From Candidatus Hadarchaeota archaeon (GTDB lineage: Archaea > Hadarchaeota > Hadarchaeia > Hadarchaeales > Hadarchaeaceae): a stretch of DNA of 64,000 bases. Positions within the stretch are counted from its first letter, which is position 1, and each line of letters starts with the position of its first letter. A program made the position numbers and the translations under genes. Positions 3 to 28,242 of the stretch are shown piece after piece. Under the pieces are notes generated by a model that saw only the letters and a program-made list of their open reading frames with translations, did not search any database and was not told the DNA's origin. The DNA lies in contig CAZESD010000002.1 of the NCBI GenBank assembly GCA_964514945.1, positions 13,369 through 77,368 on the forward strand, read 5' to 3'.

Positions 3-230
3 GTGCTGCCGCAGAGGTCGAACTTTATTAACCGAGCGTTTGATTACGTTAAGGAGCGTGATTTCGTGACAGGAAAGATTGAGGACATGGTAGCTGATTT
101 GATCGCCGAACTCAGACATCGGCTCGATGAGCTCGAGTGCCGCGTTGCATCTCTTGAGCTATCACTCGGAAAGGTCAAGCCACCCAATCGTGCTGGCAAG
201 ATTGTTAAGTCAAAGCGCCACAGCAGATGA
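3..230 (+). CDS. Hypothetical coiled-coil protein; the 5' end is cut off by the window edge
   Basis: ORF open from the window start; charged coiled-coil-like C-terminus (ELRHRLDELECRVASLELSL); its stop overlaps the start of the next ORF by 4 nt, consistent with an operon joined to the ATPase fragment. Confidence 0.3.
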   Translation: MLPQRSNFINRAFDYVKERDFVTGKIEDMVADLIAELRHRLDELECRVASLELSLGKVKPPNRAGKIVKSKRHSR

Positions 231-1405
231 TAATTATGGCGCTTCGGACCTATCGTTCCGGCCCACTCCAAGTTGCAGAAATCGAGTGTTATGGGTGTGA
301 AGGGCTGAGTTCACTCGAAGATAAGCGTTGTCGCGCCTGTGTGCTCGAGCAGCTCGGTGCGCAAAACTTGGTGGACCAAGTTACCCTTCGCCGGGCCTAT
401 AAACGGGTGTACTGTTCGAGCGAACTCTCAAAACTCGCCAGAACCCTAGCTGTGCTTAAGCAGCTCATTTTCGACCGTGCATCCTATGCGGTGAGTGAGA
501 AAGGTAAGTGCAAAGGTTGCGTGGATAAACGATGCAGAGAATTGACCGAACGATGGGAAAAACTTCTAGAAGCACCGCACGATTTTTCACCGACTGAGGA
601 ATTGGCGAAAAAATACAGTAGGCTCAAAGGAGAATGCGCAAAATGTACCGAGCGTTATTTCCTAAAACTCCTCGCGAGCGCAAAGACAGGGCTGGTGGGC
701 ATTACAGCCATCCAAAACGCTAACGGAATGAATTACGACGAGGTTTTTGCGGCGCGGGTGATGCCGTTTTTCGTCGAGGGGATTTGTCATCCGCCAAGGC
801 ACAGGTTAAAACTGCTTGAAACTTATGAGTTAGCCGAGCGGCGAGGCATCGTGCGGATTTATGAACAGCTCGATCGTCCGCTACCGTTTTACCAGCTTGA
901 TCTTCCAGAGCTCAAGATGCCCGCTGAGCACCTTCAGTTGCTGGATGATGCATATAAATTTGAGACGACGGCCAAGCCGGGACACGCCCGTTTTGCTTTC
1001 CCAACACGAATCTCGGGGTTCCTCGACGATTGGTACAATGTTTTGCTACACATCCTTCGGGAGCGCTCGGATATCAATATCCCCTCGAGTGAGCTTAGGG
1101 AACTGGCCAAACAGATGTCTGGCTGGCTTACCTACCGGTGGCTTGAACCCCTCAGTTACGATGACAAACTCACCGACATTTACATCCCCGCACCGCCCGA
1201 GCTTCAGCCTATTCGAGTCGTCCACGAACGTTGGGATATGTGCGAGACTGGTATCCATTGGACGACGCCGGCTCTGTTGGGATTTGGGGAAACTCTCGCT
1301 TCCCGCCTCGCGACATCGTTCGATGAAGTTCGCCCGCAGCTGGACATTGAAATTCCCGAGCTTGGAATGCGATTGTTTTTGAGTCGTTACCCGGCGGTAA
1401 AGTAA
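227..1405 (+). pseudogene. N-terminal fragment of a FlaI/TadA(CpaF)-like type IV pilus/secretion ATPase, cut off by an insertion
   Basis: The C-terminal third matches the conserved N-domain layout of archaeal FlaI/TadA ATPases (FYQLDLPELKMPAEHLQLL.., LTDIYI..IRVVHERW, PQLDIEIPELGMRLFL compared with PILDGRLPDGSRLQAT). It ends exactly where the linker to the Walker A region should begin. A continuation in the same frame is found at 27169 on the far side of a 25.8-kb insertion. The Cys-rich N-terminus (several CxxC pairs) may be an extra Zn module. Confidence 0.7.
1387..1396. repeat. Left copy of the 10-bp direct repeat TTACCCGGCG (candidate attL core or target-site duplication)
   Basis: An identical 10-mer is present at 27183..27192. 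Both copies encode Y-P-A in the ATPase reading frame (SRYPAVK* on the left, IYYPAIWS on the right). Confidence 0.7.
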
Positions 1406-1637
1406 CCACTTGTGAGAATTTGTACGCGGCTAAAGGATTACGAGGCCGTAAAGCTCTCAAGTGCAAGTATTACAAAAGAGGTTCAAAGGATCCATCGCGA
1501 CCTCACCTTCCCATGGAGAAAAGCATGCATAGACCTGAATTCTCACCAAATTCGGAAGAGGTCAAGTTTTCCAATAATCTGTTAGATGATAGAAAGCCAA
1601 AATTTATACGATATGAAAGCCAAGCAAACAGAAAGGG

Positions 1638-2348
1638 ATGAAAATGGGAATTCCTGAAATTTTGATGTGGTTAATTTTTGGAGCTATTATCGGTTTCGTG
1701 CTGCAAAATATACTATTTGAACTATTTGCTGGTCCAGAATTGCGATTCAAAATAAAGTATTACAGAAAAAAGCTTGGTAAAAGAATTAGAAATCCTCATG
1801 TAAAAACAGTTCTTACGACTAAAACAGACGATTTAATAGATAAAAATTTAGATCTCAATGAAATTAGAGAATTAATCAAGAACGAGTTAAAAAACAAAGG
1901 TTTCGAAGTAGAGCCTCGAGGAGAAGATCTCAAATTTAATTTCACAACAGGCAAAACAGAAATAAACGCTGATGTCATGTTTGCTCCCGAAGTTGTGGAA
2001 GAGGGAAAGGTAATAACCTCCGAAGTAGAGGTGAATCTCACGGCCTCCTGTGGGTACAACAACTTTGAAGGCTATATTTTGGATTTGAAAAAAGGTGCAG
2101 AAATGATAGAGAAATGTCTAAGGAAGGTTATCAAAGACGTGGAATTTAAAGGAGGAAACTTGACTTGTGAGCTGAAAAACCTATATGAATTAACAGGGAT
2201 CTTATCCGGACTTGAGTTAAGCTCCCTTGCGGCGAAAATTGGAAATCGGTACTCGATTGACTTGTTTAAAAATAGAATAATAACTTATGGTGACATAGAC
2301 CAAAATGTTACATCAATATTGCGAAAGATAATTACAGTATATCTCTAG
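1638..2348 (+). CDS. Hypothetical membrane-anchored protein (one N-terminal transmembrane helix plus a soluble domain)
   Basis: N-terminal hydrophobic helix IPEILMWLIFGAIIGFVL; AT-rich coding sequence; no recognisable motif. Confidence 0.5.
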   Translation: MKMGIPEILMWLIFGAIIGFVLQNILFELFAGPELRFKIKYYRKKLGKRIRNPHVKTVLTTKTDDLIDKNLDLNEIRELIKNELKNKGFEVEPRGEDLKFNFTTGKTEINADVMFAPEVVEEGKVITSEVEVNLTASCGYNNFEGYILDLKKGAEMIEKCLRKVIKDVEFKGGNLTCELKNLYELTGILSGLELSSLAAKIGNRYSIDLFKNRIITYGDIDQNVTSILRKIITVYL

Positions 2349-2353
2349 TAGTT

Positions 2354-3037
2354 TTACACCAATGGAAGAATATTATTTTTCACGAATTGCAATATCTCTT
2401 CCTCGCTCATTGCAGAAATAAATGCAATTCCCCCCGTTTGGCTTAGTCGAACCGTCAAGCCATTTTCTCTTAATGTTACCATGACCGAACTCTTGTGTCC
2501 GTGATCATCATATCTCTTATGATCAGGCGATCTCGATAAGTTTGTACCTCCCAAAGCGGCTTTTGAAATACCTGGAATATTGAGGTCAGACCAGTTACAA
2601 TGTCTCAGTACATGCGGGTTTTGACGCAGGAACATCTCAATCATCTTTGTCGAAAATGGTTGTTTGAGAATAATGTCAGCTTTAAAAAATGCTTTATTCA
2701 TTTTTGTTGCCGCGTTTTCTGCATCCCATCTACTAGCTAATAGAATGAAAAAAAGTGAACTGCCTAAAGTAAAAACGAACTTGACTTTAACTGCCTCTTT
2801 AACATAGTTTACCCCACCGTCTGTCTGCAAAATTGCCCGGGAGACCTCATAGATAATCGATCCATGAAGATCCTTTTCTTTCATAACGAGATCATCAATA
2901 ATAGTGAGTAATTCCAGATCCTCCTCATTCATTTTAACTTTAAATTTGTCGATTATCCTTTTCTCTTTCAGTTTCCTTTGCAGTTCTTTTAACGGGATGA
3001 CTTTTTCCAATCTAAATAATCTGCATGGGACAATCAT
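2354..3037 (-). CDS. Hypothetical protein
   Basis: Long ORF in an AT-rich cargo block; no recognisable motif. Confidence 0.45.
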   Translation of the reverse strand: MIVPCRLFRLEKVIPLKELQRKLKEKRIIDKFKVKMNEEDLELLTIIDDLVMKEKDLHGSIIYEVSRAILQTDGGVNYVKEAVKVKFVFTLGSSLFFILLASRWDAENAATKMNKAFFKADIILKQPFSTKMIEMFLRQNPHVLRHCNWSDLNIPGISKAALGGTNLSRSPDHKRYDDHGHKSSVMVTLRENGLTVRLSQTGGIAFISAMSEEEILQFVKNNILPLV

Positions 3038-3701
3038 CTTATGCCCCTTTTTCTTTCTTCACTGCACTTATAAACCTAAGTTTCTGGTTAAAAATAGAGC
3101 GTTGAATTCTGTTTCAGATTTTGTTTTAATAAACAATTAGAGTACTAAAATTATCTGACGGCCTACAATAAGGAAGGGCTTATTAACTAGTCCAAGCCTA
3201 AGCGATTACTTTTTCTTTAGATTTACTGCACATTTTCCGATGTACGAACGAACTGAAGGAGATGGGAGAAATTGGATGTGACAAACGGGAATAACTTCGA
3301 TGTTGTAAACCTTTTTGACTATTTCATTTACTGTTCTCGTTACACCCTCTTCCCTTCCGTAATCATCAAACACAACTACCGTTCATTTGTGCATAAATTT
3401 CTGAACGTGCAGATTATACTAACCTCTTTCTTTTCAAACTACGTGGTGCGTTCCTCGCTTCTCGCACAGTCGGCACGGCACGGCGGGCGAGGGCTTTGAG
3501 CTGTTTAAATATGGGTTCTGCCATTTTCCCCTCAAATTAACCATAATAGGCTGTCACCAGATTAATAAAGTTTTTATATGAAGGTTCTGCTGCGTATTAG
3601 GGACTTTTAGCATTTTTAGCCCTCGGTGGTGCAATTCGGGACTTGGATGCACGTGGCCGAGAACGGTGCCTCAAGCCACGTGCTGAATGCTAATTTGCAT
3701 C

Positions 3702-5456
3702 TCACGGTTTTGAGCCCGATGCTGAACGAGGCTGGGGATAAACATTCGGGAACTCGGAGTAGTAATCTAAAACGTTAAAGAATATCGGCTCGCCAGAAAT
3801 CGAAAGCGGAGAAATGGGTCCGTACACCATGAAGGGATACTGCTTTCCCCCCATTGTGAGTAATGTCGCGGGATCCCTGAAGCTCTGGTAGAGATCCAAG
3901 TATCCTCCTCCCCCTATCAGCTCTCGTATTGCTCTGAGTTCCCCTCCCCAAGAGAGCCCGTAACCAAAAAAACATATACGCATCTGTTTCAGTACCTCTA
4001 TATCCAGGCCCGCGATGGATGTGCTGATGAAAAGCCACCCAAATCCGTACTTTCTCGTTTCTCTGACGGCCGTCGTAAGCGTCCCCTTGAGATTCTTGAA
4101 ATCTTCGTCCACGGGCCTCTCTGAGGGAATGAATCTATGGGCCTCGTCCACCATCACGAGTAGGTTAAGCAACTCCCTCTCTCGGTACAGGGTCTCCGCG
4201 GCATCCCTCAGTTTTGCGAAGATTTCGTTCAGGACTATCGCCATGACTTCTGGACTCCAGAAGATTCCAGCGGCAGCGGTCTCCGAGAGGTCTATGATCA
4301 CGACGCACTTTTGCTTGCATATTTTCTGGATTAGATCATCAATCCTGACCTTTTGCGGAGCGACAACGAAAAGATCGGTGACAGACCTCCAGATGCTATA
4401 AAGATTTTGTCTCCTGTTAGCGATACAATTTCTAACCCGCATCTGTCCATCCGAACCCACATAGATTCTCTCCACATTCTGGTCGAGGTAATTCATGAGC
4501 TGGTCAAAAGCAGCTTGATGATTTATTGGAACAAAACCCTGTAGAGTGGAAACTCCGTGGGTCATTGGCGGGCGGGCAGACGGTTGTGTCAGAAACGACT
4601 CAATCAGGTAGAGCGCGTTTAACTGGTTTTCCTCCGCCACGACGCCGAGTTCGTGAAGGAACCTTGACCGGAGGAGGATTCGCTGAAGACTCGTGGGACT
4701 GGAAAGGCAGATGTCGCAGACCCTGTACACCTCGGGGGTTCTTCCTACTTGGCTCAGGAGCTTCACCAGATGCTCTTTATTCCTGACCTCGCTGGAGTAC
4801 TCACCGACAGGATCCAGCGCGAGGATTGACATCTGTGGGAACTTGGTGTAAATCGCAAGGAGCATCCTGGCCAAATAAGACTTTCCGGACCCAGTTTTTC
4901 CGAAGACCCCGATGTGGTACCCCTCCCCCAGTCCGCCGTTTTTCCCGAAGTGTTTGAAAAACATTGGAAGGAATATATCCGTGTTGTACAACTTCCCGAC
5001 ATAAGAAATGTCGGTCTGCGCCTTCACGAGTTCGTCCACGATCTCTTGGTTGAGGAGGAAGATTTTCGTCCCCGTTGGAGGAACTGAACCCAATGCGACG
5101 GGCAGTATCTTCCCCTTGTCCCAGGAATAGACCGATCCGACTGAGATCTCCATCCCCCTTACATCATGTTGCTCGGTCAACGGCGGCGCGCGCCCACGAA
5201 AGCTTGTGATCTTGCGAACCGAGTGTCGCTCGATGTACGGGTTCTCGAGCGAGATGGACACCACTTGCCCCATGGCGTAAACGGGCTTTCCATCTTGCCT
5301 GGATTCGGTGATACAGAAGTTTCCAACTATCCCCTTCTCGTATGCACCCTCGATTAAATCAGCGACCAGAGAGTGGCTGGATGACGGGGATCCAACGACG
5401 CCTATCCATTCCCCGCGCTGGACCTTACCGCCGAGCTCGTCCTGTTTTTCACTCAC
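3702..5456 (-). CDS. herA: HerA-like (DUF87/FtsK-HerA superfamily) hexameric ATPase/helicase
   Basis: Walker A GVFGKTGSGKSYLARML; Walker B/DEAH-like box LLVMVDEAHRF; an N-terminal region before the P-loop as in HerA HAS-barrel proteins; 4-nt start/stop overlap (ATGA) with the upstream NurA-like gene. Confidence 0.85.
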   Translation of the reverse strand: MSEKQDELGGKVQRGEWIGVVGSPSSSHSLVADLIEGAYEKGIVGNFCITESRQDGKPVYAMGQVVSISLENPYIERHSVRKITSFRGRAPPLTEQHDVRGMEISVGSVYSWDKGKILPVALGSVPPTGTKIFLLNQEIVDELVKAQTDISYVGKLYNTDIFLPMFFKHFGKNGGLGEGYHIGVFGKTGSGKSYLARMLLAIYTKFPQMSILALDPVGEYSSEVRNKEHLVKLLSQVGRTPEVYRVCDICLSSPTSLQRILLRSRFLHELGVVAEENQLNALYLIESFLTQPSARPPMTHGVSTLQGFVPINHQAAFDQLMNYLDQNVERIYVGSDGQMRVRNCIANRRQNLYSIWRSVTDLFVVAPQKVRIDDLIQKICKQKCVVIIDLSETAAAGIFWSPEVMAIVLNEIFAKLRDAAETLYRERELLNLLVMVDEAHRFIPSERPVDEDFKNLKGTLTTAVRETRKYGFGWLFISTSIAGLDIEVLKQMRICFFGYGLSWGGELRAIRELIGGGGYLDLYQSFRDPATLLTMGGKQYPFMVYGPISPLSISGEPIFFNVLDYYSEFPNVYPQPRSASGSKP

Positions 5457-6616
5457 TCGAATCCCCCCTCAGTTCTGTAGTCGTGAGATGCTAAAAAAAC
5501 ATCGACTGGAACACCGACTACTCGGTCCACATCGTTCAAAGCTGCCTCCCGGAGCTCGGCGAGGGCGAAGTACGCGTGCTTGACGAACTGGTCCGCGATG
5601 TAGAGAGGATACGGTTCGAAAATGCCGGGGATTCCGGATTGATCCATCAAAGCTTCTAGCAGCACCGCGACCCTGCGTTCGTCTTGGGCCACGTTCTCTG
5701 CTACCTCGAGTCTGAGCGCCGGGTGGGCTGGGGACACCTTGAAATAGAAAACTTGTAACTCCCACAGCGCATCGATTATCTTTTTTCTCAACCTAACGAA
5801 TACCTGATCGCTTTCCATTTCTCCGAGTGTGAGGTGCCAGCGGTCCTCCGGGCGGCTGAGCTTCACGGGTCCTACCACATCGCCGGGTTTCAGGGCTATC
5901 GACAGCAGTCCCTTATCGTCTATCCCCTTGAGGACTGCGTGGTTCATGTCTTCCTTTACCAGCAGTGAAAGAATCTCGCTCCGAGTGGTGTACTTCGGCA
6001 CGCCGACGTACATGATGTCGGTCCTTGGAGAAGTGAGGACCTTGAGGTAGTTCTCCAGCGTTGTTTTTTGTCTTGAAACGAACTCATTTTTGAGTTTTTC
6101 TGGGGCATGGCTGACCGCGCGAAATCCCTGTCCAATTTTTATAAGCTGGGTTGTGAGCGAGCCGTCCAAAAAAACGACACGATGGGGGGCGCTCGTGGCG
6201 AGATTAAGCTCGTAAGAAAACATAAGGGCACTACACACGGGTAGCGTTTCGGGTTTGTGCTCGACAGGAAAAATGCGGACGATGTGGTGCGGTTTCTCCC
6301 ACCGTCTGGTTTCTTTTGGTGGGACAAGTCCCTCAACCGCGACACCTGCAATTCCAGTCGTGTCCAGCGAGAGTTGTCGAATGACCGCATAGGTTCCATC
6401 CACACCAACGGTTGTCGGGTAGCTCTTTTGTCTCAACAACTCGTTCACATTTCTTAACTGCCCGAGCTCGATGAGCTTTTCCCTCACGGGGGTTTTTATG
6501 TTCTCTATCTCTCGTAACCTGTCACTCACACTTTGAACAACTTCGCCGTGTTTTTGGAGCATCTCGTCCACCATCGACTCAGGGAGAAAATCTAGTGGAC
6601 TTTCGTACTTCTTCAT
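5453..6616 (-). CDS. nurA: NurA-like 5'-3' nuclease, partner of HerA
   Basis: NurA signature motifs VGVDGTYAV (motif I, xDGS/T) and VVFLDGSL. It is translationally coupled to herA. I prefer the start at 6616 (MKKYESPL) over the track start at 6703 because 6703 would overlap the upstream gene by 85 nt. Confidence 0.7.
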   Translation of the reverse strand: MKKYESPLDFLPESMVDEMLQKHGEVVQSVSDRLREIENIKTPVREKLIELGQLRNVNELLRQKSYPTTVGVDGTYAVIRQLSLDTTGIAGVAVEGLVPPKETRRWEKPHHIVRIFPVEHKPETLPVCSALMFSYELNLATSAPHRVVFLDGSLTTQLIKIGQGFRAVSHAPEKLKNEFVSRQKTTLENYLKVLTSPRTDIMYVGVPKYTTRSEILSLLVKEDMNHAVLKGIDDKGLLSIALKPGDVVGPVKLSRPEDRWHLTLGEMESDQVFVRLRKKIIDALWELQVFYFKVSPAHPALRLEVAENVAQDERRVAVLLEALMDQSGIPGIFEPYPLYIADQFVKHAYFALAELREAALNDVDRVVGVPVDVFLASHDYRTEGGFE

Positions 6617-6618
6617 GT

Positions 6619-7464: not shown

Positions 7465-7486
7465 ATAGGTGACATTTTGTTGAATA

Positions 7487-18470: not shown

Positions 18471-18471
18471 A

Positions 18472-19188: not shown

Positions 19189-19276
19189 CTAAATCCCTGA
19201 GCTGGATTTTGTTTTCCGCCGATTTCGCCCGCTCCGCCGTAGAAGCGAAGGGTTGTCATTTTTCACCCTAGTCAAA

Positions 19277-20645: not shown

Positions 20646-20781
20646 GAACTCAAGCCCCATGCTGCATCCGCTTTTTTATTCGTAGTTGTTCGGCCCGCAA
20701 TATTTTCATAACTCGCATCGCTATTTTCCATCCATCCTGATCGGAGATTAGAACCCTAAGGTGAACCAAACGAATATTAAC

Positions 20782-21603: not shown

Positions 21604-21673
21604 TATAATTACTCTTTAGATTCTTACCTAAAAGTTTTGAAAAAGTAATTTTTGTGCAAGCGGGGCAATTTTT

Positions 21674-22297
21674 GTGCAGAAAACCTATTATTGTGCAAAG
21701 CCTATTTTGCCAAAACGTTTAAATACCCCCTTTACCCATAAGTATGCCTGTGTGCTGAAACACACAGGAGTAATTTCAGTGATCGGCAACAGGTGGTTCT
21801 GCATGCCCGACGACGACCGAGAGCCTTGGTGCTTCCTCACCCTTGAGCTGGGTGCCGGGAAACGCATCACGGGCTGGCAGGCGGGGTACGGAAACCCGAG
21901 GAGGATAACCCGGATGCTCAGCGGCGACGGATCCAGCGAGGAGGAGATCGTCCGAGGGCTGTTCGAGGAGGTTCGATTCTGCAGGCGGAAGGGCGCGACG
22001 CTGATCACGCTCGGCGCGGAGGTTCTGCCAGCTCTCAGGACCCGAACCCTCCTGCTCGGGCTCGACGGGGCGGGCATAGGGAGGGTGAGGCACATCTGCA
22101 TCGAGAGGCTCCTGAGGGATCACTTCTTGGGATTCGAAGGGGGGATGGATCTACCGCACGCACGCCGCATCCTAGAGTCGGCCAAGGGTGCAGACGTCGA
22201 AACGGGCGGTCTAGACGGGCCCGAGGTGCTCTGGAGGTTATATTCGGTAGTGGGGCCCCTGCTGCCGAAGGGATGCTTCCGTGGGCCTCCCCCGTGA
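21674..22297 (+). CDS. Hypothetical GC-rich protein; the real start is probably the GTG at 21779, after an AGGAG ribosome-binding site
   Basis: ORF in a GC-rich block; an 8-bp hairpin and the motif CACACAGGAG lie just upstream. Confidence 0.4.
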   Translation: MQKTYYCAKPILPKRLNTPFTHKYACVLKHTGVISVIGNRWFCMPDDDREPWCFLTLELGAGKRITGWQAGYGNPRRITRMLSGDGSSEEEIVRGLFEEVRFCRRKGATLITLGAEVLPALRTRTLLLGLDGAGIGRVRHICIERLLRDHFLGFEGGMDLPHARRILESAKGADVETGGLDGPEVLWRLYSVVGPLLPKGCFRGPPP

Positions 22298-22543
22298 ATG
22301 CCGTTGGGAGGGGAAAGGGAGATAACGAAATCTGAACCCTGCTTCGCGCACTACTTGGCCCTCCCCAAGTGCAGGGAGTGCAGGATAGAGATGCCCTGCC
22401 TAAGAGCTACTCTGGGGGGCATGGCCGAGCGCGGTCTGCTGAGGGAACGGTTCGACCTGGGGCGGGGGGAACTCGTTTACTCGATCTCAGAGAGGGGAAG
22501 ACGGCGCTTGGAGAAGAGGGGGCTACTGAGGAAGGTGGATTAA
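22298..22543 (+). CDS. Winged-helix transcriptional regulator (PadR/ArsR-like)
   Basis: ERGLLRERFD...VYSISERGRRRLEK. Confidence 0.5.
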   Translation: MPLGGEREITKSEPCFAHYLALPKCRECRIEMPCLRATLGGMAERGLLRERFDLGRGELVYSISERGRRRLEKRGLLRKVD

Positions 22544-22544
22544 A

Positions 22545-23117
22545 TTGTTGCTGGAAAATCGCTATTTTTCCCCTTATAAACAACCTCCACCCAAAGACTC
22601 GGCGGGGAGAAACATATGGGAGGTGAAAGAAGTGTCAAAACGAAAATATCGAGGAAAGGGTCTGAAGAGTTACGAGCGTGAGCCCCTCAGTAGAGAAGAA
22701 ATCAGAGAGCTAATCCAAGCCCCAGACAACCTTCGTGACAGGCTGATTATCGCATTGCTCTACGACACGGGACTAAGGACAAATGAGCTGGCAGACCTCA
22801 AGCTGAGTGACATCGACCCGGAAAAAGGGATGATCAAGGTAGTCAGAGGAAAGAGGGGAAGAGACAGGCTGGTTCCCTATTCCAGGGAAAAGCTCGGCAT
22901 GCTCGTAGACCACTGGCTGAGAAAAGAAAGAGGTAGCTACCTGGATGCAGGGGACGACGATCACTTCTTCGTTTCGAGATATGGCAAGGGACTGAAACCG
23001 GATGAGATAAGAAAAATCGTCCGCAAAGCTGCCGAGCAAGCGAGGATTCAGAAGATCCACGGAGTGACGCCGCGTATCCTCAGACATTCCTTCGCCACTC
23101 ACGCTACAGAAAAATAA
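22545..23117 (+). pseudogene. Truncated tyrosine recombinase; the catalytic core is present but the segment carrying the C-terminal Tyr is missing
   Basis: LRTNELADLKLSDID...RILRHSFATHATEK contains the R..HxxR box, but the ORF stops before the LGH...Y motif. Confidence 0.65.
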
Positions 23118-23120
23118 TGG

Positions 23121-23615
23121 GTGAATGAATTGAGAGATAATCTCACAAGGATAAACATATCCCTGACGAAGGATCAGGCCAAGCGGTACAAGGAATATAG
23201 TAGGCACTGCCACGGTAGCCGGAGCCAGTTCCTGCGCTTGGCGGCGGAGAACGAGATCGAGAGACGCCAGAATGGCGGGGGCACGGCAGAAATTGATGTA
23301 ACCCTCAGACCTCTTGTAGAGAGGCTGGAAGAGGTAGAAAAAGCGGTCAAGCGGATCGAGGGGAGGTTGGAGAAGACCGAGAAGGGAGTCGACTTCCTCG
23401 TTGATAAACACGGAAGCAGGATCGAGAAAGTTGCAGACGATGTAGAGAAGCTACTCGAGGAACACGGCGGCGAACTCGGCGTGCCCGAGATGAGCGATTT
23501 ACTTCCATACGAACGTAGCGAGATCCTCTTAGGTGTCGAAGGGCTGGAGAACGTACATACGATTAAGCGGGTTGAGCAAGAAGGGGGAATAATAAAGTGG
23601 AAGATCAGGGGGTGA
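23121..23615 (+). CDS. RHH-like DNA-binding protein with a coiled-coil C-terminus
   Basis: INISLTKDQAKRYKEY...SRSQFLRLAAENEI. Confidence 0.5.
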   Translation: MNELRDNLTRINISLTKDQAKRYKEYSRHCHGSRSQFLRLAAENEIERRQNGGGTAEIDVTLRPLVERLEEVEKAVKRIEGRLEKTEKGVDFLVDKHGSRIEKVADDVEKLLEEHGGELGVPEMSDLLPYERSEILLGVEGLENVHTIKRVEQEGGIIKWKIRG

Positions 23616-24982
23616 AGCATGTGGCAAGTGAAAGCGAAATTGTGCAGACAGCGCTCGATGGCTTGTTAAAGGAAAGTGAGGGTGAAACAACGAAGGATGA
23701 AAGCAATGAAAAGGGATCCATCCAAGCTGGTTCACCAGAGACCTTTCTCGGGTCCTTCGCAAGGCGCCAAGAGCTATACGAACAGGGGCTTAGCGACTCC
23801 GCGATAGCGCGGGAGGAGGGTGTGAGCCGCTCCGCTATGAGAAGGAATTTGCCACGGAATTCGCATTTGAAGTCCTTCCCCCGTCGCCAAGAGCTATACG
23901 AACAGGGGCTTAGTGATTACGCGATCGCGCAGGCAGAAAGCGTCGCCAATCACGTTATTTGGATGTGGAGAAAACGACGAAATTTGCCTCCGAATCTGCC
24001 TTCGCCTCAAAAACATATAGCAGTGAAAAGCTATTTCATAAAAGAATATCTCAGGTATCTTGAAGATGAGGGCTCAAGTGTCGTCAATAATCATAAGTGC
24101 TGTTTGGCGATGTTCGAGAACTTCTTAAAGGGTAAACCGTTAGAGAAAGTCGCCCCGAGGGATGTTTGGGACTTTCTAAACAATTTGATGGTAAAGAGGA
24201 GGGCAAAAGGCACTATATCACACTATTTTTCAACAATTAAATCGTTTTACGAGTATTTGGACCTCTGCCATGACATTGACGTTTCAGAATTAAGGAGGAA
24301 GCTTCCAGAACTGAGGAGGCAGATAAAAAAGTATCGATCTGGAGTACGGAAGGGTGTTGGTCGAGAACCCCTTACGAGGGATGAGGTTCGCCGTCTAATT
24401 AATGCGCCAGACAGCCTGCGCGATACGCTCCTCCTCAGCATGCTTTGCTATACCGGAATAAGGGCAGGAGAAGCTGCAGGTTTAAAAATCGAAAAGGTCG
24501 ACACGAAGAGGAGGGAAATAGAGGTCGTTGGCAAGGGAGATAAGCCGAGAAGGGTACCATATCATCTCGACCTTGATAGGCTGATAGACAGGTGGCTGAA
24601 TAAGGTAAGGAGGAGCTATGTAAACTCAGGGAATAGCGATTATTTCTTCGTCTCGAAATCGGGGGCTAAATTGACGGTTCCTCAAATCCGCAAAATTGTA
24701 AATAAAGCGGCTGAAAAAGCAAGTATTCAAAAAGTAGTTTTAGTGAAACTTGATGGTGCGGTAATTTATAAGGTAAAGCCCCATGTCCTTCGGCACACTT
24801 TCGCGACCCATCTAGATGAGGATTTCGCGAACGCTTCTGAGGACAGAATTATTCCAAGGGAGGACATCCAACAGATATTGGGCCACGAGCAAATGAGCAC
24901 AACAAGAGAGTATATCCATTCTGATGTAAGATTCAAGTCTTACTGTAAGCACTTCAAGGCCTACTTTGGAAGAAATCCTTAG
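23597..24982 (+). CDS. Tyrosine recombinase/integrase (XerC/D-like)
   Basis: LCYTGIRAGEAAGLKIEKVD, HVLRHTFATHL, ILGHEQMSTTREYIH; the N-terminus has a tandem ~40-aa duplication (RRQELYEQGLSD.AIA); the start is uncertain. Confidence 0.85.
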   Translation: MEDQGVKHVASESEIVQTALDGLLKESEGETTKDESNEKGSIQAGSPETFLGSFARRQELYEQGLSDSAIAREEGVSRSAMRRNLPRNSHLKSFPRRQELYEQGLSDYAIAQAESVANHVIWMWRKRRNLPPNLPSPQKHIAVKSYFIKEYLRYLEDEGSSVVNNHKCCLAMFENFLKGKPLEKVAPRDVWDFLNNLMVKRRAKGTISHYFSTIKSFYEYLDLCHDIDVSELRRKLPELRRQIKKYRSGVRKGVGREPLTRDEVRRLINAPDSLRDTLLLSMLCYTGIRAGEAAGLKIEKVDTKRREIEVVGKGDKPRRVPYHLDLDRLIDRWLNKVRRSYVNSGNSDYFFVSKSGAKLTVPQIRKIVNKAAEKASIQKVVLVKLDGAVIYKVKPHVLRHTFATHLDEDFANASEDRIIPREDIQQILGHEQMSTTREYIHSDVRFKSYCKHFKAYFGRNP

Positions 24983-25249
24983 TCGAATAGGAAAACCCTA
25001 ATCCTTATTTTTAATGTTTTTTTACCAAGTGGAATGTAATAACTACACAACGTCGGCATTGTTCCAGATAGAAGGGTGCCCATGTTGTGTATTTATTGTG
25101 TATGAGAGAAGACCACAGCGGAAGGTGAATCGGCTCATTGAAAATGGGGTAATCGCCCGTGAAGGCAAGGAGAGAAACCCAACCCTTAGCGTTTGTTTAC
25201 AGAAATCTTTCCGCGTCTACCCCAACCTCGCGTGCGGGGGTGAGCCAAC

Positions 25250-25495
25250 ATGATGGATGGCCGCGTCGTCTACGTTCGGTACTGGGACCACGTTCTCTTC
25301 AAGGACGTTAACTCCAAGGCCTACGGACCGCAGGTGAGGGAAACTGTCGGTTGGCTTGCCGAGGATAACGGGGGCTACATCCGAATCGAGTGGGAGAGAT
25401 TTAACGGCTCAGCCGTGCCGGACAACTTAAGGCAGCGCTCAACGGGGCTCGTGATCCTCAAGTCCTGCATCCTCGAGCTGAGGGAGGTGGGGTGA
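25250..25495 (+). CDS. Hypothetical protein
   Basis: ORF only. Confidence 0.35.
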   Translation: MMDGRVVYVRYWDHVLFKDVNSKAYGPQVRETVGWLAEDNGGYIRIEWERFNGSAVPDNLRQRSTGLVILKSCILELREVG

Positions 25496-25499
25496 TGCG

Positions 25500-25721
25500 C
25501 TACTTTTCCCGTTTGAGCCATAGCTCGAGGGCTTCTGCGATAGCCTTGCCTAAAGCCCCTTTCTCCCCACCGTACTTGAGGGCCACCCTTGCCCGAAAGT
25601 CACGCTCCAGCTTTTCGGGCAGCTCAATGGTCATCCGTCCCATGCTTAAACGCCAGTGTGGTCCTATGTCGATATGCTTAAATAACACTTCCCTCATACG
25701 TATGTCTGTATGTATTAGCAC
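25500..25721 (-). CDS. RHH/CopG-family protein
   Basis: MTIELPEKLERDFRARVALKYG...KAIAEALELWLK. Confidence 0.55.
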   Translation of the reverse strand: MLIHTDIRMREVLFKHIDIGPHWRLSMGRMTIELPEKLERDFRARVALKYGGEKGALGKAIAEALELWLKREK

Positions 25722-25737
25722 ACAGGAGGTTCAGTGA

Positions 25738-27168
25738 GTGGTTTCAGAGTCCAGAGTCTTGGAGCGACTCGAAGGCGGGTTCGAGATCCGAAGAATCACG
25801 CACGGGCCTGAGGGCTACCAACTCGACAGACCAGTTGAGGTCAGGCTTCCGGGGGATATGAGCAGGGGCGAGGAGGATGTCTACGATTACATTATTCGCT
25901 CCCTCCTTAACGACACGCCTCGTCTGATCCCGTTCGCGTGCGAGAGCCGAGCGATATTCGACCTCGCAAAGTACCTGAGGCGGGGCCTCAGCTCTAGCGA
26001 GCATACCCTGCGCACCTACGTACACGGCGTTGCCCAGTTCTGCAGATGGGCTGGAAGGGCCCCCGACGAACTTATTTGCGAGTGCAAGACCTCCGATGGG
26101 CTGCCTGATCAAAAGAAGCTTGCCGAACACGCGAAACTCCTCGATGATTACGTCGGATCTCTGCAGGCGGACGGACTCGCACCGCTCACCATAGCGAATT
26201 ACGTCAAAGCCATCAAGAGCCTGTACCGAGCAAATGGTTTGGAACTCAGGCTCCTCTACCGACTCAAGCGTACGATCAAAAACGAAGACCGAGCTCCGAC
26301 GCCCGAGGAACTCCAGCGGATGATCGATTTGGGGAACCTCCGCGACAAAGCGATCGTTTCGATGCTAGCCCTAGGCGGCTTTCGGATAGGGACGCTCGCG
26401 CGGCTAAAGTACCGCCACGTCCGCGGGGACTTGGAACGCGGCATGGTGCCCGTGCAAGTGCACGTGGAGGCCGACATCACTAAGGGCAAGTATCACAGCT
26501 ACGACACCTTCCTAGGCAAGGAGGCCGCCGAGTACCTGAAAGCGTACCTCGACCTGCGGCGGCGTGGAACTTTAAGGGAACACCGAACCTCAAGCGGTCA
26601 CATACTTCGTGTAGGAATTCCCCCGGAACAAATCACGGACGAATCGCCGCTCATACGCGCTGATCGCGACATTAAGGTAAGGTCGGTGACCCCCCGCGTG
26701 ATTTACCACGTCATCAACTCGCTTTATCGAAGGGCCGGGCTCGTTTCAAGGAGGGGAAGTGGTCGGACCCGATACCAGCTCTGGGCCCACTCGATCCGTA
26801 AGTATTTCCGAACACAGTTAGCAGCACTCGGTATGCCGACCGACTACATTGAATACATGATGGGCCACAGGATCTCGACCTACCACGACATACGCATGAA
26901 GGGAATCGAGTTCCTCCGCAACGTTTACGCTAGCTCTGGACTATCGATTAGGTCCAAAACGAAGATTACACGCTTGCAGATACTGGAGCAAATGGTGAGC
27001 GCTTGGGGAATGGATCCGAACAAAGTCGTGGTGAAAGAAGCATTCGCTGAGCCACACCGGGTCTTCGTATCGCCGTACGATCGAGAGGAGAATCAGATGA
27101 AGGTACTGAGCAACGCGCTGAAAGAGATGATGCGAAAAGAGCTAGGGTCTGTGGGTCGTAGAAATTGA
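25738..27168 (+). CDS. Tyrosine recombinase/integrase lying at the right end of the element
   Basis: LALGGFRIGTLARLKYRHV, HSIRKYFRT, MGHRISTYHDI; it ends 15 bp before the right-hand direct repeat. Confidence 0.8.
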   Translation: MVSESRVLERLEGGFEIRRITHGPEGYQLDRPVEVRLPGDMSRGEEDVYDYIIRSLLNDTPRLIPFACESRAIFDLAKYLRRGLSSSEHTLRTYVHGVAQFCRWAGRAPDELICECKTSDGLPDQKKLAEHAKLLDDYVGSLQADGLAPLTIANYVKAIKSLYRANGLELRLLYRLKRTIKNEDRAPTPEELQRMIDLGNLRDKAIVSMLALGGFRIGTLARLKYRHVRGDLERGMVPVQVHVEADITKGKYHSYDTFLGKEAAEYLKAYLDLRRRGTLREHRTSSGHILRVGIPPEQITDESPLIRADRDIKVRSVTPRVIYHVINSLYRRAGLVSRRGSGRTRYQLWAHSIRKYFRTQLAALGMPTDYIEYMMGHRISTYHDIRMKGIEFLRNVYASSGLSIRSKTKITRLQILEQMVSAWGMDPNKVVVKEAFAEPHRVFVSPYDREENQMKVLSNALKEMMRKELGSVGRRN

Positions 27169-28242
27169 AGCAAGAGTATTTATTACCCGGCGATATGGTC
27201 GAGGAGCATCGCGATATCGGTTAGGAAGCGTCGCCGCCGAGCTTGGACCCAGCCACTCTTTCTCGAGCGGGGCACGCTCACACCTCTCGCCAGCTCGCTC
27301 GTGAGCAACCTCGTCCGGCGAGGTGCTTCAGCTTTTATCATAGGTGAGATGGGGAGCGCAAAGACCAGCGAAGTCGAGACGCTAGTGCCCGAGATAGGCC
27401 CCCACCAACGCATCATAGCATTTCAGGATACGGAGGAACTCCACCTCGAGGAGTTCGTTGCACACGGTTACTCAATCGAAAATGTGCGAATTGCCGATGC
27501 CGCGCATCTCCAGCGCCAAATTGATGCCTTCCTTCGGGGAGGCGCGGCATACTGGCTCATCACGGAGGTACGGGCGATGGAGGCGGTTAGGGCAGCTTTG
27601 GGGGCGGCAGCGCGGCAGGGAAGTCAACCAATCGTGAGCAGCTTTCACGCCCGCTCGAAGCGCGAGATGTTTGATCTGGTGTGCCGCATCATGGGATTGC
27701 ATGACGCAGCCTACAAGTACGTCGATCTTGTCGTCAGCACCGCCCGCTTTTCCACTCCCACCGGTACCATCAGGCGGGTGATAGAGGTGGCTGAGGTACT
27801 CAAAGATTGGGATGACAAGCCGAAGTATGCCGAGATTTTCACCGACGACCGCAAGCGCGATTTGCTCGTGCCAAGAAATTTCCTTCGCGGTGATAGGCGC
27901 CTTCTCGAGCGCTTGAACTCCTTTGATCTCTCGAAACTCAATGTCCTAGATGCTGCAAAACGATTGGACTTCTTGTCACCTGAAAGAGGCGGAAGCCAGC
28001 TCTTGCCCACTATGTGCAAGCGGTTCGCGATAAATGAGCGAGACTTCCTCACAGGCATTCTCGCAGAGGCTAAGATGAAATCTGACTTGCTTGGTTTGAC
28101 CAGACGCACTGGCGACATGAGCTACCTCGAGCTACCATTCGTGAGTCGTGCCTACGATGCTTACTTCTCCTTCGTTAAAGAAAATGCTCCAGAGTACGAG
28201 CGCGTTCTAACTAGGTGGCAGAGTTGGTTGAAGGCCCTTTAA
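27169..28242 (+). pseudogene. C-terminal ATPase-domain fragment of the split FlaI/TadA(CpaF)-like ATPase
   Basis: The frame is open from the integrase stop codon and has no ATG before the P-loop. ...ISVRKRRRRAWTQPLFLERGTLTPLASSLV.. aligns with FTIRKF...GTLS of secretion ATPases. The Walker A is degenerate (IIGEMGSAKTS). Blocks IIAFQDTEEL, YWLITEVR and SSFHARS follow the VirB11/TadA pattern. Confidence 0.75.
27183..27192. repeat. Right copy of the 10-bp direct repeat TTACCCGGCG (candidate attR core)
   Basis: Identical to 1387..1396. Confidence 0.7.

What the first reader, a model, noticed from the sequence alone, without database searches (positions are those of the whole stretch)
227..28242. 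A ~25.8-kb composite integrative element splits a FlaI/TadA-like pilus ATPase gene and is bounded by 10-bp direct repeats
ORF 227..1405 ends with ...PQLDIEIPELGMRLFLSRYPAVK*. The frame that opens straight after the integrase stop at 27169 reads SKSIYYPAIWSRSIAISVRKRRRRAWTQPLFLERGTLTPLASSLV..GEMGSAKTS. Joining the two at the shared YPA codons gives RLFLSRYPAIWSRSIAISVRK...GTLT. Allowing for the repeat-encoded residues, the segment from RLF to GTL is 39 residues long, the same length and block order (RLQAT..FTIRKF..GTFS) that I recall for the FlaI linker. I take this match from memory; I did not run a pairwise alignment. The 10-mer TTACCCGGCG is present at both junctions, 1387..1396 and 27183..27192, which is the signature of site-specific integration into a protein-coding gene. 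A tyrosine recombinase gene sits at the right end. Insertion into a pilus ATPase gene is an unusual target; archaeal integrative elements usually target tRNA genes.
Basis: partly seen in the sequence, partly recalled or inferred. Interest (0 to 1): 0.85.

Follow-up and report, generated by a model that had tools for sequence, protein, structure and literature searches.

The report
Mobile island splits archaeal pilus-type ATPase gene
A 25.8-kb mobile DNA island carrying defence genes has inserted precisely into the middle of a secretion/pilus-motor ATPase gene of an uncultured Hadarchaeon, and related archaea show that this same gene is hit repeatedly by mobile elements at two conserved spots.

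Summary
TTACCCGGCG occurs only at 1387-1396 and 27183-27192. Removing 1397-27192 (25,796 bp) restores an in-frame 739-aa ORF. That ORF aligns without gaps across the join to FlaI, archaeal GspE and CpaF, and its model has their fold. Related Hadarchaeota carry the uninterrupted 736-739-aa gene in the same neighbourhood. Their DNA aligns up to 1396 and resumes at 27184, overlapping by the 9-bp core.

The insert is a mosaic "cryptic integrated element". Its right end holds a conserved three-gene integration module: an 81-aa ORF, a 46-aa ribbon-helix-helix protein and an intact 476-aa tyrosine integrase ending 14 nt before attR. It also holds a second integrase, an integrase remnant, a type IIG restriction-modification enzyme, a HerA/NurA-like pair and five copies of a small membrane-protein gene. 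No virus or plasmid hallmark genes were found.

The split gene shows no decay, so the insertion is recent or reversible.

New here: a different integrase family interrupts the same gene at codon ~513 (Walker B) in several other lineages, and metagenome contigs end exactly at both junctions.

Excision was not demonstrated. This is a new member of a known kind, and it resembles bacterial prophages that split comGA.

The parts
227..1396 (+). N-terminal fragment of the split secretion-type ATPase gene (codons 1-390). Read-through into the island adds VK and a stop at 1403-1405.
   Evidence: 93% nt identical to intact alleles in L001-L003. Contains the Cys-rich N-terminal region and most of the FlaI-like N-domain.
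1387..1396 (+). attL core, TTACCCGGCG
   Evidence: Together with the island-side GTAA it forms the dyad TTACC-CGGC-GGTAA, read directly from the sequence.
1397..27192 (.). Integrated element, 25,796 bp (equivalently 1387-27182).
   Evidence: Absent from syntenic loci L001-L004 and from most of about 110 related loci. GC 0.31-0.45 over much of it, against about 0.52-0.57 in the flanks.
3702..6703 (-). Cargo: HerA-like ATPase (3702-5456) and NurA-domain protein (5453-6703).
   Evidence: Pfam DUF87/HerA 2e-12 and NurA 8e-07. PADLOC HerA 4.9e-17.
6619..7464 (-). Cargo: HTH protein.
   Evidence: Weak HTH_7/HTH_23 hits, below the curated cut-offs.
9649..12336 (-). Cargo: type IIG restriction-modification enzyme (895 aa), lying in the lowest-GC stretch of the island.
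   Evidence: Pfam Eco57I 8.8e-49, N6_Mtase, MmeI_Mtase, TaqI_C, HSDR_N. PADLOC REase_MTase_IIG 5.9e-135.
12844..14232 (-). Cargo: alkaline-phosphatase-superfamily (Phosphodiest) protein, 462 aa.
   Evidence: Pfam PF01663 2.8e-18. No PADLOC or NCBIfam hit.
7960..8343 (-). Full-length copy (127 aa) of a small membrane-protein gene that recurs in the island. The other copies are 14578-14880 (+, diverged 3' end), 18249-18431 (-) and 19277-19501 (-) (both 5'-truncated), and the fragment 20588-20641 (+).
   Evidence: Repeat families D1 and I1-I6, 80-86% identity. Alignment and translations.
22545..23117 (+). Tyrosine-recombinase remnant (190 aa). It ends after the HxxR box, lacks the catalytic Tyr, and no C-terminal piece occurs elsewhere in the window.
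   Evidence: Pfam Phage_integrase 1.7e-25, profile positions 3-141 of 172..
23121..24982 (+). Second recombinase unit: a 164-aa RHH-like/coiled-coil ORF (23121-23615) and intact integrase Int2 (23597-24982, 461 aa).
   Evidence: Pfam Phage_integrase 1.1e-31 plus SAM-like N-domains. 47% identical to the remnant, and only about 35% identical to Int3 over 110 aa.
25239..27176 (+). Integration module: 81-aa ORF (25250-25495, +), 46-47-aa ribbon-helix-helix protein (25500-25643, -) and integrase Int3 (25738-27168, +, 476 aa).
   Evidence: The same three-gene module is found in L005, L007 and L008 (Int 62-68% identical) and at 92% nt identity in L125-L127. In 27 homologues R216, K249/K251, H351, R354, H377, Y382 and Y397 are invariant.
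27183..27192 (+). attR core, TTACCCGGCG, 14 nt after the Int3 stop codon.
   Evidence: The attR junction is reproduced 100% by an independent Logan assembly of run SRR10836661 (L124).
27193..28242 (+). C-terminal fragment of the ATPase gene (codons 391-739). It is in the same frame as Int3 but has no start codon before GTG 27301 or ATG 27349.
   Evidence: 95% nt identical to intact alleles. Carries Walker A (GEMGSAKTS), the Asp box, Walker B (LITEVR) and the His box.
28215..30197 (+). Downstream partner gene (660 aa) encoding a polytopic membrane protein. It overlaps the ATPase stop codon and is probably the platform protein of the machine.
   Evidence: Conserved next to the ATPase in L001-L004. 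About 8-9 hydrophobic segments. No Pfam, PDB or NCBIfam match, so the role is inferred.

Best explanation
Window 1397-27192 is a site-specific integrative element of the lambda/pNOB8 ('type II') kind, in which the integrase gene stays intact after integration. In the vocabulary used for thaumarchaeal elements it is a 'cryptic integrated element'.

Proposed history and mechanism:
1. A circular form carrying an attP with the core TTACCCGGCG recombined with the identical core in the chromosome. The chromosomal core is codons 387-390 (R-Y-P-A) of a Hadarchaeota-specific ATPase of about 740 aa related to FlaI, GspE and CpaF.
2. The reaction was most probably catalysed by Int3, the tyrosine integrase encoded 14 nt from attR, perhaps assisted by the small RHH protein encoded divergently upstream of it.
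3. The crossover duplicated the core and cut the gene in the loop between the last two beta-strands of the ATPase N-domain.
4. The N-fragment now ends after two foreign codons. The C-fragment has no start codon upstream of its P-loop region. The translationally coupled membrane-protein gene downstream is separated from the operon promoter. The machine is therefore expected to be off while the element is in place.
5. The element has since become, or already was, a mosaic. It carries defence-type cargo (type IIG restriction-modification enzyme, HerA/NurA-like pair), a second integrase, an integrase remnant and repeated fragments of a small membrane-protein gene.

Shown: the insertion, its exact borders, the duplicated core, the empty sites, the identity of the target, the intact catalytic residues of Int3, and the absence of decay in the split gene.

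Inferred: that Int3 rather than Int2 did it, that the gene is functionally off, and that the element can still excise.
For: - Repeat unique to the two junctions.
- In-frame restoration of a 739-aa ORF.
- Gap-free alignment across the join to FlaI, GspE and CpaF. Fold match to 2oap with TM 0.71 relative to the target.
- Intact syntenic alleles at 90-95% aa identity.
- blastn breakpoints at 1396 and 27184 with a 9-bp overlap. attB reads GAGTCG[G/A]TACCC[C/G]GCGATATGG.
- Int3 lies adjacent to attR with invariant R, K, HxxR, H and Y residues. Its three-gene module is conserved at the ends of other archaeal islands.
- attR is reproduced in a second assembly.
- The site motif SRYPAIW is nearly invariant across the family, so it offers a stable target.
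- On the window branch the split gene has 35 synonymous and 13 non-synonymous changes. The intact L001 branch has 35.5 and 13.5. There are no stops or frameshifts in 2.2 kb.
- The model places residue 390 between strands 381-387 and 396-402, ahead of the C-domain.
Against: - No attP, and no empty site of the same strain, was found. The degenerate att pattern gave 0 hits in JGI metagenomes, and the exact restored protein is not in the 15-billion-protein collection.
- A 90%-identical integrase occurs in three other contigs (L125-L127). There, homology stops 6 nt before the core and the core is absent. Int3-like integrases are therefore not generally tied to this att site.
- The nearest other relatives (62-68% identical) sit next to other targets.
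- Two further recombinase genes lie in the island.
- The core is short (9-10 bp). No arm-type sites were identified.
- The function of the ATPase and its partner is unknown, so 'machine off' has no observable phenotype yet.
Confidence: 0.8

Rival explanations
1. Reversible switch ('regulated gene integrity'). The element excises in some cells or conditions and restores the ATPase gene, so the insertion acts as an on/off control of the pilus-like machine. Known bacterial examples are phi10403S in comK, and skin and SPbeta in sigK and spsM.
For: - The cores are identical, and Int3 and the candidate RHH cofactor are intact.
- The split gene shows no relaxation of selection. With 13 non-synonymous against 35 synonymous changes, at most roughly 5-10% of the branch can have been neutral (inference).
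- The restored junction is seamless.
- A contig from another population ends exactly at the last base of the core, as expected where occupied and empty alleles coexist.
Against: - No attP or same-strain attB was found.
- Lack of decay is explained equally well by a recent insertion.
- Only one occupied instance of this site is known, so the published multi-event criterion (PMC7192596) is not met for site 390.
Confidence: 0.2
2. The island is an immobile relic, and/or it was inserted by a recombinase other than Int3 (Int2, or an integrase since lost). In that case the Int3 module arrived beside attR by later recombination.
For: - The Int3 module is a 1.94-kb cassette found elsewhere at 92% identity with unrelated flanks, and the homology ends 6 nt before the core.
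- The island shows heavy internal rearrangement: a truncated integrase, truncated gene copies, and an 83-nt chromosomal sequence copied inside it.
Against: - An integrase ending 14 nt from the att core is the standard architecture. It is also seen in the unrelated element at codon 513.
- Int2 lies 2.2 kb from attR, with the Int3 module in between.
- No second pair of flanking repeats was found.
Confidence: 0.15
3. Assembly or binning chimera that joins unrelated contigs inside the ATPase gene.
For: The source is a metagenome-assembled genome. Chimeric contigs do occur in this gene family, for example P0094.
Against: - Both junctions carry the same 10-mer.
- The two gene halves restore one frame.
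- An integrase abuts the junction.
- An independent Logan assembly reproduces attR over 3.5 kb at 100% identity.
- Synteny continues on both sides.
Confidence: 0.02
4. Transposition with a 10-bp target-site duplication (DDE transposon or casposon) rather than att recombination.
For: Short direct repeats flanking an insert are also produced by transposition.
Against: - No transposase or Cas1 gene was found.
- The termini GTAAAGTAACC... and ...AGAGTATTTA are not inverted repeats.
- Three tyrosine recombinase genes are present.
Confidence: 0.03
5. The two fragments are both made and assemble into a working split ATPase.
For: The cut lies close to the boundary between the N-domain and the C-domain. 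A GTG at 27301 could start a 313-aa C-domain protein.
Against: - The cut removes the last N-domain strand and the invariant RKRR..WTQPLF segment from any product started at 27301 or 27349.
- No start codon lies near the junction.
- All other family members are single chains.
Confidence: 0.03

Closest known systems
Cryptic integrated elements and other iMGEs of Thaumarchaeota (Krupovic et al. 2019, PMC6563490)
   Same: Tyrosine-integrase elements with short att sites (as short as 8 bp), with mosaic cargo and no virus or plasmid hallmark genes. Integration sites were validated by comparison with empty sites in relatives. Some of those elements use protein-coding genes as targets.
   Different: The 14 thaumarchaeal cases in coding genes are in 3'-distal regions, so the gene is largely preserved. 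Here the cut is at codon 390 of 739 and no replacement end is supplied. The host phylum is also different (Hadarchaeota).
Type II (pNOB8-type, lambda-like) archaeal integrases (Badel et al. 2021, PMC8371274)
   Same: The integrase gene stays intact and sits next to one att site. The direct repeats arise from attP x attB exchange.
   Different: The target is not a tRNA gene. Int3 belongs to a large uncharacterised clade of about 450-500 aa found in Bathyarchaeota, Thermoproteota, Nitrososphaerales and Hadarchaeota. The clade has an H-x4-Y-x14-Y C-terminal motif, and which Tyr is catalytic is not known.
Prophage SpST71A in comGA of Staphylococcus pseudintermedius (PMC7029219); pneumococcal prophages in comYC (PMC12637031)
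   Same: A site-specific integrase-bearing element splits, in mid-gene, the ATPase (comGA, same superfamily) or the pilin gene of a type IV pilus-like machine and thereby disables it. The same target is used recurrently across lineages.
   Different: Those are bacterial tailed prophages, and their target function (DNA uptake) is known. Here the host is an archaeon, the element has no recognisable virion genes, and the role of the machine is unknown.
Regulated-gene-integrity elements: skin (sigK), SPbeta (spsM), phi10403S (comK), nifD/fdxN/hupL elements (Mageeney et al. 2020, PMC7192596)
   Same: The insertion disrupts a domain, and precise excision would restore the gene seamlessly.
   Different: Excision has not been observed here, and no developmental or regulatory context is known.
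FlaI (4ii7), Archaeoglobus GspE (2oap), CpaF/TadA (8rkd), as relatives of the target gene
   Same: Two-domain secretion-ATPase fold. Asp box, Walker B Glu and His box are conserved. A polytopic membrane-protein gene lies adjacent.
   Different: - About 300 extra N-terminal residues with CxxC pairs, and about 130 extra C-terminal residues.
- Walker A is GEMG[ST]AKTS, with Ala in place of the canonical Gly in all 17 aligned members.
- The window protein does not reach Pfam T2SSE significance.

Membership tests
Type II/IV secretion-system ATPases (FlaI/GspE/CpaF/VirB11; Pfam T2SSE PF00437) | Significant sequence similarity spanning the N-domain, linker and RecA-like C-domain | tested here: met
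   phmmer against FlaI E 4.6e-12, query 305-614. Family profile: FlaI 3.5e-20, 2oap 1.5e-18, CpaF 3.8e-15.
Type II/IV secretion-system ATPases (FlaI/GspE/CpaF/VirB11; Pfam T2SSE PF00437) | Match to the curated Pfam T2SSE model | tested here: inconclusive
   The restored window protein gives no Pfam hit at E<=0.01. Many homologues at 55-65% identity carry a precomputed PF00437 hit.
Type II/IV secretion-system ATPases (FlaI/GspE/CpaF/VirB11; Pfam T2SSE PF00437) | Canonical Walker A GxxxxGK[ST] | tested here: not met
   The sequence is GEMGSAKTS. G441, G444, A446, K447 and T448 are invariant in 17 family members, so this is a family-wide variant and not decay.
Type II/IV secretion-system ATPases (FlaI/GspE/CpaF/VirB11; Pfam T2SSE PF00437) | Asp box, Walker B with catalytic Glu, His box | tested here: met
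   FQDTEEL, WLITEVR and SFHA align with the FlaI motifs IEDTPEL, LVGEIR and TFHA. D469, E515 and H542 are invariant.
Type II/IV secretion-system ATPases (FlaI/GspE/CpaF/VirB11; Pfam T2SSE PF00437) | Two-domain secretion-ATPase fold | tested here: met
   AlphaFold model with mean pLDDT 72.9; the C-domain core 443-560 has low confidence. Foldseek: 2oap E 1.5e-22 with TM 0.71 relative to the target, then FlaI and CpaF.
Type II/IV secretion-system ATPases (FlaI/GspE/CpaF/VirB11; Pfam T2SSE PF00437) | Partner polytopic platform protein (FlaJ/TadC/PilC-like) and pilins | tested here: inconclusive
   The adjacent conserved 660-aa protein has about 8-9 hydrophobic segments but no Pfam, PDB or NCBIfam match. 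No pilin gene was identified.
Tyrosine-recombinase integrative element, type II (integrase intact after integration) | Integrase with the R-K-HxxR-H/W-Y catalytic set | tested here: met
   Pfam Phage_integrase. R216, K249/K251, H351, R354, H377, Y382 and Y397 are invariant in 27 homologues.
Tyrosine-recombinase integrative element, type II (integrase intact after integration) | Identical direct repeats at both borders, present once at the empty site | tested here: met
Tyrosine-recombinase integrative element, type II (integrase intact after integration) | Integrase gene intact and adjacent to an att site | tested here: met
   The Int3 stop codon is at 27166-27168 and the core starts at 27183.
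Tyrosine-recombinase integrative element, type II (integrase intact after integration) | Excision to a circular form carrying attP | tested here: inconclusive
   0 hits to a pattern covering attP, attB, attL and attR in JGI metagenomes, but the source population is not in that collection. Raw reads could not be mapped.
SSV-type (type I, 'suicidal') archaeal integrases | att site inside the integrase gene, so that the gene is split into N and C parts at the element's ends | tested here: not met
   Int3 and Int2 are intact. The remnant at 22545-23117 is internal, and no matching C-terminal piece exists in the window.
Regulated gene integrity (criteria of Mageeney et al. 2020) | Insertion disrupts a protein domain without supplying a replacement | tested here: met
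   Cut at codon 390 of 739. The island adds only VK and a stop. No second ATPase copy occurs in the window.
Regulated gene integrity (criteria of Mageeney et al. 2020) | Several independent integrations by one tight integrase clade at the same position | tested here: inconclusive
   Site 390: one occupied allele, plus a contig (L104) that ends exactly at the core. Site 513: met for another integrase clade. L009, L010/L011 and P0089 are interrupted at that site. The element-derived tail is 94% identical between P0089 and P0093 while the host parts are 83% identical.
Regulated gene integrity (criteria of Mageeney et al. 2020) | Excision restores gene function under defined conditions | not testable with these tools
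   Needs reads, cultures or reporter assays.
Provirus | Capsid, portal, terminase or other virion genes | tested here: not met
   None found with Pfam, PHROGs or NCBIfam. Int3 has only distant (41-48%) relatives in IMG/VR.
DDE transposon / casposon | Transposase or Cas1 gene, and terminal inverted repeats | tested here: not met

The most novel reading that the evidence does not exclude
This Hadarchaeota-specific pilus/secretion ATPase operon may be a preferred battleground between mobile elements and host.

Supporting observations:
- Two unrelated integrase families have evolved attB sites inside two of the gene's most conserved motifs: SRYPAIW at codon ~390 and the Walker B motif YWLI|TEVR at codon ~513.
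- A third footprint targets the 3' end of the partner gene.
- Insertions recur across lineages and are polymorphic within populations.

If this is right, knocking out the machine benefits the element. It could block pilus-dependent superinfection or DNA uptake that might 'cure' the element, as proposed for bacterial prophages in comGA and comYC. Alternatively the insertion could work as a reversible on/off switch. Either way it would be the first archaeal case of this kind of conflict.
Probability: 0.3. Interest if true: 0.7.

Novelty: new member of a known kind. Interest (0 to 1): 0.5.

Why it matters
- Almost nothing is known about mobile elements of Hadarchaeota, a subsurface phylum with no cultured members. 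Here one integration event is mapped to the base pair, with attB, attL and attR, a conserved three-gene integration module and a defence-gene cargo.
- Archaeal integrative elements are described as using tRNA genes, intergenic DNA or the 3' ends of coding genes. A mid-gene, gene-killing target is unusual.
- The same gene is hit at a second conserved motif by another integrase family in several lineages.
- This parallels bacterial prophages that disable competence pili. It gives a concrete, testable archaeal candidate for element-driven inactivation, or switching, of a surface machine.
- It also flags a lineage-specific ATPase family (Cys-rich N-terminus, Ala-variant P-loop) whose function is worth establishing.

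Tried and rejected
**Searches for an excised form or an empty site of the same strain**
- One degenerate 30-nt pattern covering attP, attB, attL and attR in JGI metagenomes: 0 hits.
- Exact look-up of the restored 739-aa protein and of both fragments: not in the collection.

**Relatives of the integrases**
- The nearest Int3 relatives (L005, L007, L008, 62-68% identical) are not next to ATPase fragments and lack the core.
- A direct-repeat search for their att sites gave only a 12-mer that is probably chance.
- L125-L127 (90% identical integrase) have a different downstream sequence and no core.
- Int2 has no relatives in IMG/VR. Int3 has only two distant ones.

**Contig ends that looked suggestive**
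- MAG-18 contigs L054 and L050 break over site 390, but both read through it; they differ by one SNP in the core. I treat this as strain variation, not as evidence.
- L128 starts 6 nt after the core, but L096 from the same assembly is intact across the site. Not used as evidence.
- P0094, which looked like a third interruption at codon ~454, is a chimera with a bacterial IF-2-like C-terminus.

**Other dead ends**
- A systematic dyad-symmetry scan of attP and attB gave nothing beyond the TTACC/GGTAA arms visible by eye.
- No tRNA genes and no Rfam family in 1-32000.
- PHROGs and NCBIfam gave no informative hits for about ten island ORFs.
- A stop-codon reassignment was considered, because several ORFs abut in frame. 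It was rejected: the interrupting stops are a mix of TGA and TAA, and the flanking ORFs are unrelated or are remnants.

Full report
**1. Observation**

- ORF 227-1405 ends ...GMRLFLSRYPAVK*.
- The frame following the integrase stop codon (TGA, 27166-27168) reads SKSIYYPAIWSRSIAISVRKRRRRAWTQPLFLERGTL....
- TTACCCGGCG occurs only at 1387-1396 and 27183-27192. Shuffled sequence gives a mean of 0.08 matches, and none of 100 shuffles had two.
- Deleting 1397-27192 (25,796 bp) yields an in-frame ORF of 2220 nt, 739 aa.

**2. Identity of the split gene**

- The restored protein gives no Pfam hit at E<=0.01.
- phmmer against PDB sequences finds FlaI (4ii7, E 4.6e-12), archaeal GspE (2oap), CpaF and VirB11. 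The FlaI alignment runs from residue 305 to 614 with no gap at the join at residue 390.
- A profile of 17 family members raises this to FlaI 3.5e-20, 2oap 1.5e-18 and CpaF 3.8e-15.
- An AlphaFold model has mean pLDDT 72.9, and its C-domain core is poorly modelled. Its best Foldseek matches are 2oap (E 1.5e-22, TM 0.71 relative to the target), then FlaI and CpaF.
- The family is restricted to Hadarchaeota/Hadesarchaea in the searches made.
- Members are about 735-750 aa long, with a Cys-rich N-terminal extension of about 300 aa and a C-terminal extension of about 130 aa.
- All members have the P-loop GEMG[ST]AKTS, with Ala where the canonical motif has Gly. The Asp box, the Walker B Glu and the His box are conserved.
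- The gene overlaps a conserved 660-aa gene for a polytopic membrane protein. I take this to be the platform protein. That is an inference from position and hydropathy only; searches gave no family match.

**3. Empty sites and exact borders**

- Homologues of 736-739 aa at 90-95% identity exist.
- Their contigs show the same gene order as the window outside the insert: MoeA, a small ORF, the ATPase, the 660-aa gene, glnA.
- blastn aligns L001 9784-11170 to window 10-1396, and L001 11162-14189 to window 27184-30211. The insert is therefore absent, and 9 bp of the query are used twice.
- attB reads GAGTCG-GTACCCCGCG-ATATGG in L001 and GAGTCG-ATACCCGGCG-ATATGG in L004.
- The core covers codons R-Y-P-A of the motif SRYPAIW, which is nearly invariant in the family.
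- Of 43 genome loci and 67 metagenome loci, nearly all are uninterrupted.
- An independent Logan assembly of run SRR10836661 reproduces window 23885-27402, including attR, at 100% identity. The junction is therefore not an artefact of one assembler.

**4. Anatomy of the insert**

Right end:
- Int3 (25738-27168, 476 aa) ends 14 nt before the core. It has Pfam Phage_integrase and SAM-like N-domain hits.
- In an alignment of 27 homologues, R216, K249/K251, H351-x-x-R354, H377, Y382 and Y397 are invariant.
- Int3 belongs to a family of more than 1000 archaeal proteins of about 450-500 aa.
- Upstream lie a divergently transcribed 46-47-aa ribbon-helix-helix gene (25500-25643, MGRMTIELPE...LWLK) and an 81-aa ORF (25250-25495).
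- The same three genes precede the integrase in L007 and L008. The RHH gene also precedes it in L005.
- The whole 1.94-kb module (25239-27176) recurs at 92% nt identity in contigs from three other samples (L125-L127), with unrelated DNA on both sides. It is thus a portable integration cassette.
- Further left are Int2 (23597-24982), a 164-aa RHH-like ORF, and a recombinase remnant (22545-23117). The remnant stops after the HxxR box, and its missing C-terminus is nowhere in the window.

Cargo:
- a type IIG restriction-modification enzyme (9649-12336; PADLOC 5.9e-135)
- a HerA-like/NurA-like pair (3702-6703)
- an alkaline-phosphatase-superfamily protein
- wHTH and RHH regulators
- a YbjQ-like protein
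- many ORFs without matches

No capsid, terminase, replication or conjugation gene was recognised.

A small membrane-protein gene occurs once complete (7960-8343). It occurs once with a diverged 3' end, twice 5'-truncated and once as a 54-nt fragment, at 80-86% identity and in both orientations. With GC content ranging from 0.31 to 0.57, this supports the word 'composite'. I could not define nested att sites.

**5. State of the split gene**

- With L004 as outgroup, the window branch of the ATPase gene carries 35 synonymous and 13 non-synonymous changes.
- The branch leading to the intact L001 allele carries 35.5 and 13.5.
- Omega is about 0.14 in both halves, similar to the neighbouring genes, and there is no stop or frameshift.
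- Neutral evolution would give about 3.3 non-synonymous changes per synonymous one.
- So the insertion is either recent, or the gene is periodically restored.
- In the model, residue 390 lies in the turn between strands 381-387 and 396-402, just before the linker helix and the C-domain.
- The N-fragment gains only VK and a stop. The C-fragment has no start codon before GTG 27301 or ATG 27349. That would omit the invariant RKRR..WTQPLF segment. I therefore expect loss of function while the element is integrated.

**6. The gene is a recurrent target**

- In L009, L010 and L011 the orthologous gene is interrupted after ...YWLI. This is inside the Walker B motif, at codon ~513 in the numbering of the restored window protein.
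- In L010/L011 a 423-aa tyrosine integrase is encoded on the opposite strand directly at that junction. L009 has a homologue 74% identical. It is only distantly related to Int3.
- Each interrupted allele has a close relative with an intact gene (L107 at 92% nt, L098 at 86% nt), and homology stops at the same nucleotide.
- P0089 is a further interrupted allele. Its element-derived tail is 94% identical to that of P0093, while the host parts are 83% identical. This points to spread of the element and independent integration.
- Contigs L044 and L053, from two more lineages, end exactly at ...TGGTTGAT and ...TGGCTCAT, the same base.
- At the window's own site, contig L104 (84% aa identity, another sample) ends exactly at ...GTACCCGGCG, the last base of the core.
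- About 21 contig ends fall inside this 2.2-kb gene. Three landing on two specified bases is far beyond chance: about 0.02 are expected (my estimate). It is what a branching assembly graph produces when occupied and empty alleles coexist.
- In L012/L059 a remnant of an L010-type integrase, followed by a 93%-identical 313-bp copy of the 3' end of the 660-aa gene, lies upstream of the operon. This is a third footprint.

**7. Mechanism and rivals**

The best-supported reading is lambda/pNOB8-type site-specific recombination between an attP and the chromosomal core, most probably by Int3.

The reservation is that a 90%-identical integrase in L125-L127 sits beside a different sequence with no core. 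Specificity must then reside in a few residues or in the core-proximal DNA, or another recombinase did the job.

A reversible switch is compatible with all the data but is not shown. Chimera, transposition and a functional split protein are each contradicted (see the rivals).

**8. Comparison with what is known**

- Archaeal attB sites in coding genes are recorded (PMC8371274, section 19). In Thaumarchaeota 14 of 68 mapped elements use the 3'-distal part of a coding gene, and att sites can be as short as 8 bp (PMC6563490).
- Mid-gene, function-destroying insertion is the hallmark of bacterial 'regulated gene integrity' elements (PMC7192596).
- The closest functional parallel is prophage SpST71A, which splits comGA, the ATPase gene of the competence pseudopilus (PMC7029219). 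The 'chromosomal curing' argument explains why such elements would disable DNA uptake (PMC12637031).
- HerA-like ATPases and integrases are among the commonest genes of archaeal 'dark matter islands' (PMC4158269).
- In the papers searched I found no description of an integrative element in Hadarchaeota beyond counts of proviruses and integrons.

**9. Verdict**

It is a new member of a known kind. Interest is moderate, and is raised by the recurrence of hits in the same gene.

Noticed in passing
L009 4876-7685; L010 5763-8572; L011; ends of L044 and L053: A second integration hot spot in the same ATPase gene family, after ...YWLI inside the Walker B motif (codon ~513). It is used by a different 423-aa tyrosine integrase encoded antisense at the junction. 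Two further contigs end at exactly that base.
   Followed up: yes
L104 (Ga0209991_10050382), last base: A metagenome contig from a relative with 84% aa identity ends exactly at the last base of the att core (...GAGTCGGTACCCGGCG). This suggests that occupied and empty alleles coexist at the same site in another population.
   Followed up: partly
L012 / L059 764-1589 and 5690-6002: Upstream of the intact ATPase operon lies a C-terminal remnant of an L010-type integrase. It is followed by a 313-bp, 93%-identical copy of the 3' end of the 660-aa partner gene. This looks like the footprint of a third element that targeted that gene's 3' end.
   Followed up: partly
window 30772-30854 and 14951-15032: An 83-nt sequence in the spacer upstream of glnA has an inverted, 89%-identical copy inside the island. 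It is conserved in relatives and is predicted to form a hairpin with a 15-bp closing stem, with one compensatory change. It has no Rfam match. It could be a small RNA, a protein-binding palindrome or an old att site.
   Followed up: partly
window 25239-27176; L125, L126, L127: The Int3 integration module recurs at 92% nt identity in three other samples, flanked by unrelated DNA (IS-type transposases upstream, an N6/N4 methyltransferase downstream). The homology ends 6 nt before the att core.
   Followed up: partly
L008 6046-6145: Among the closest relatives of Int3 (65-68% identity), this integrase abuts, on the opposite strand, the 5' end of a TFB-like gene (zinc-ribbon N-terminus MAPANCPSCDSP...). 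That indicates a different target.
   Followed up: no
window 441-449 of the restored protein (DNA 27343-27369): The whole ATPase family has the P-loop GEMG[ST]AKTS, with Ala in place of the canonical Gly before Lys, plus a Cys-rich N-terminal extension of about 300 aa. Whether these proteins hydrolyse ATP normally is unknown.
   Followed up: partly
window 32552-32658: A cation-efflux gene present in the syntenic loci of relatives (L001 16572-17456) is missing here and is replaced by about 100 bp.
   Followed up: no
window 38750-42437 and 3702-6703: The chromosomal Mre11-like and Rad50-like genes have no HerA or NurA gene next to them in this window, whereas the island carries a HerA-like/NurA-like pair.
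   Followed up: no
window 56294-63994 (-): A giant ORF of at least 2566 aa with fibronectin-III, polysaccharide-deacetylase and Ig-like domains. It is still open at 63994, seven bases short of the end of the window. A related 569-aa gene lies at 45894-47603.
   Followed up: no
window 27166-27195: The Int3 stop codon (TGA) and the ATPase C-fragment are in the same reading frame with no stop between them, so read-through of one TGA would fuse the two. This is probably coincidence.
   Followed up: no
P0094: A 496-aa 'homologue' is a chimera of ATPase residues 1-451 with a bacterial IF-2-like C-terminus. It is a warning about chimeric contigs in this data set.
   Followed up: yes
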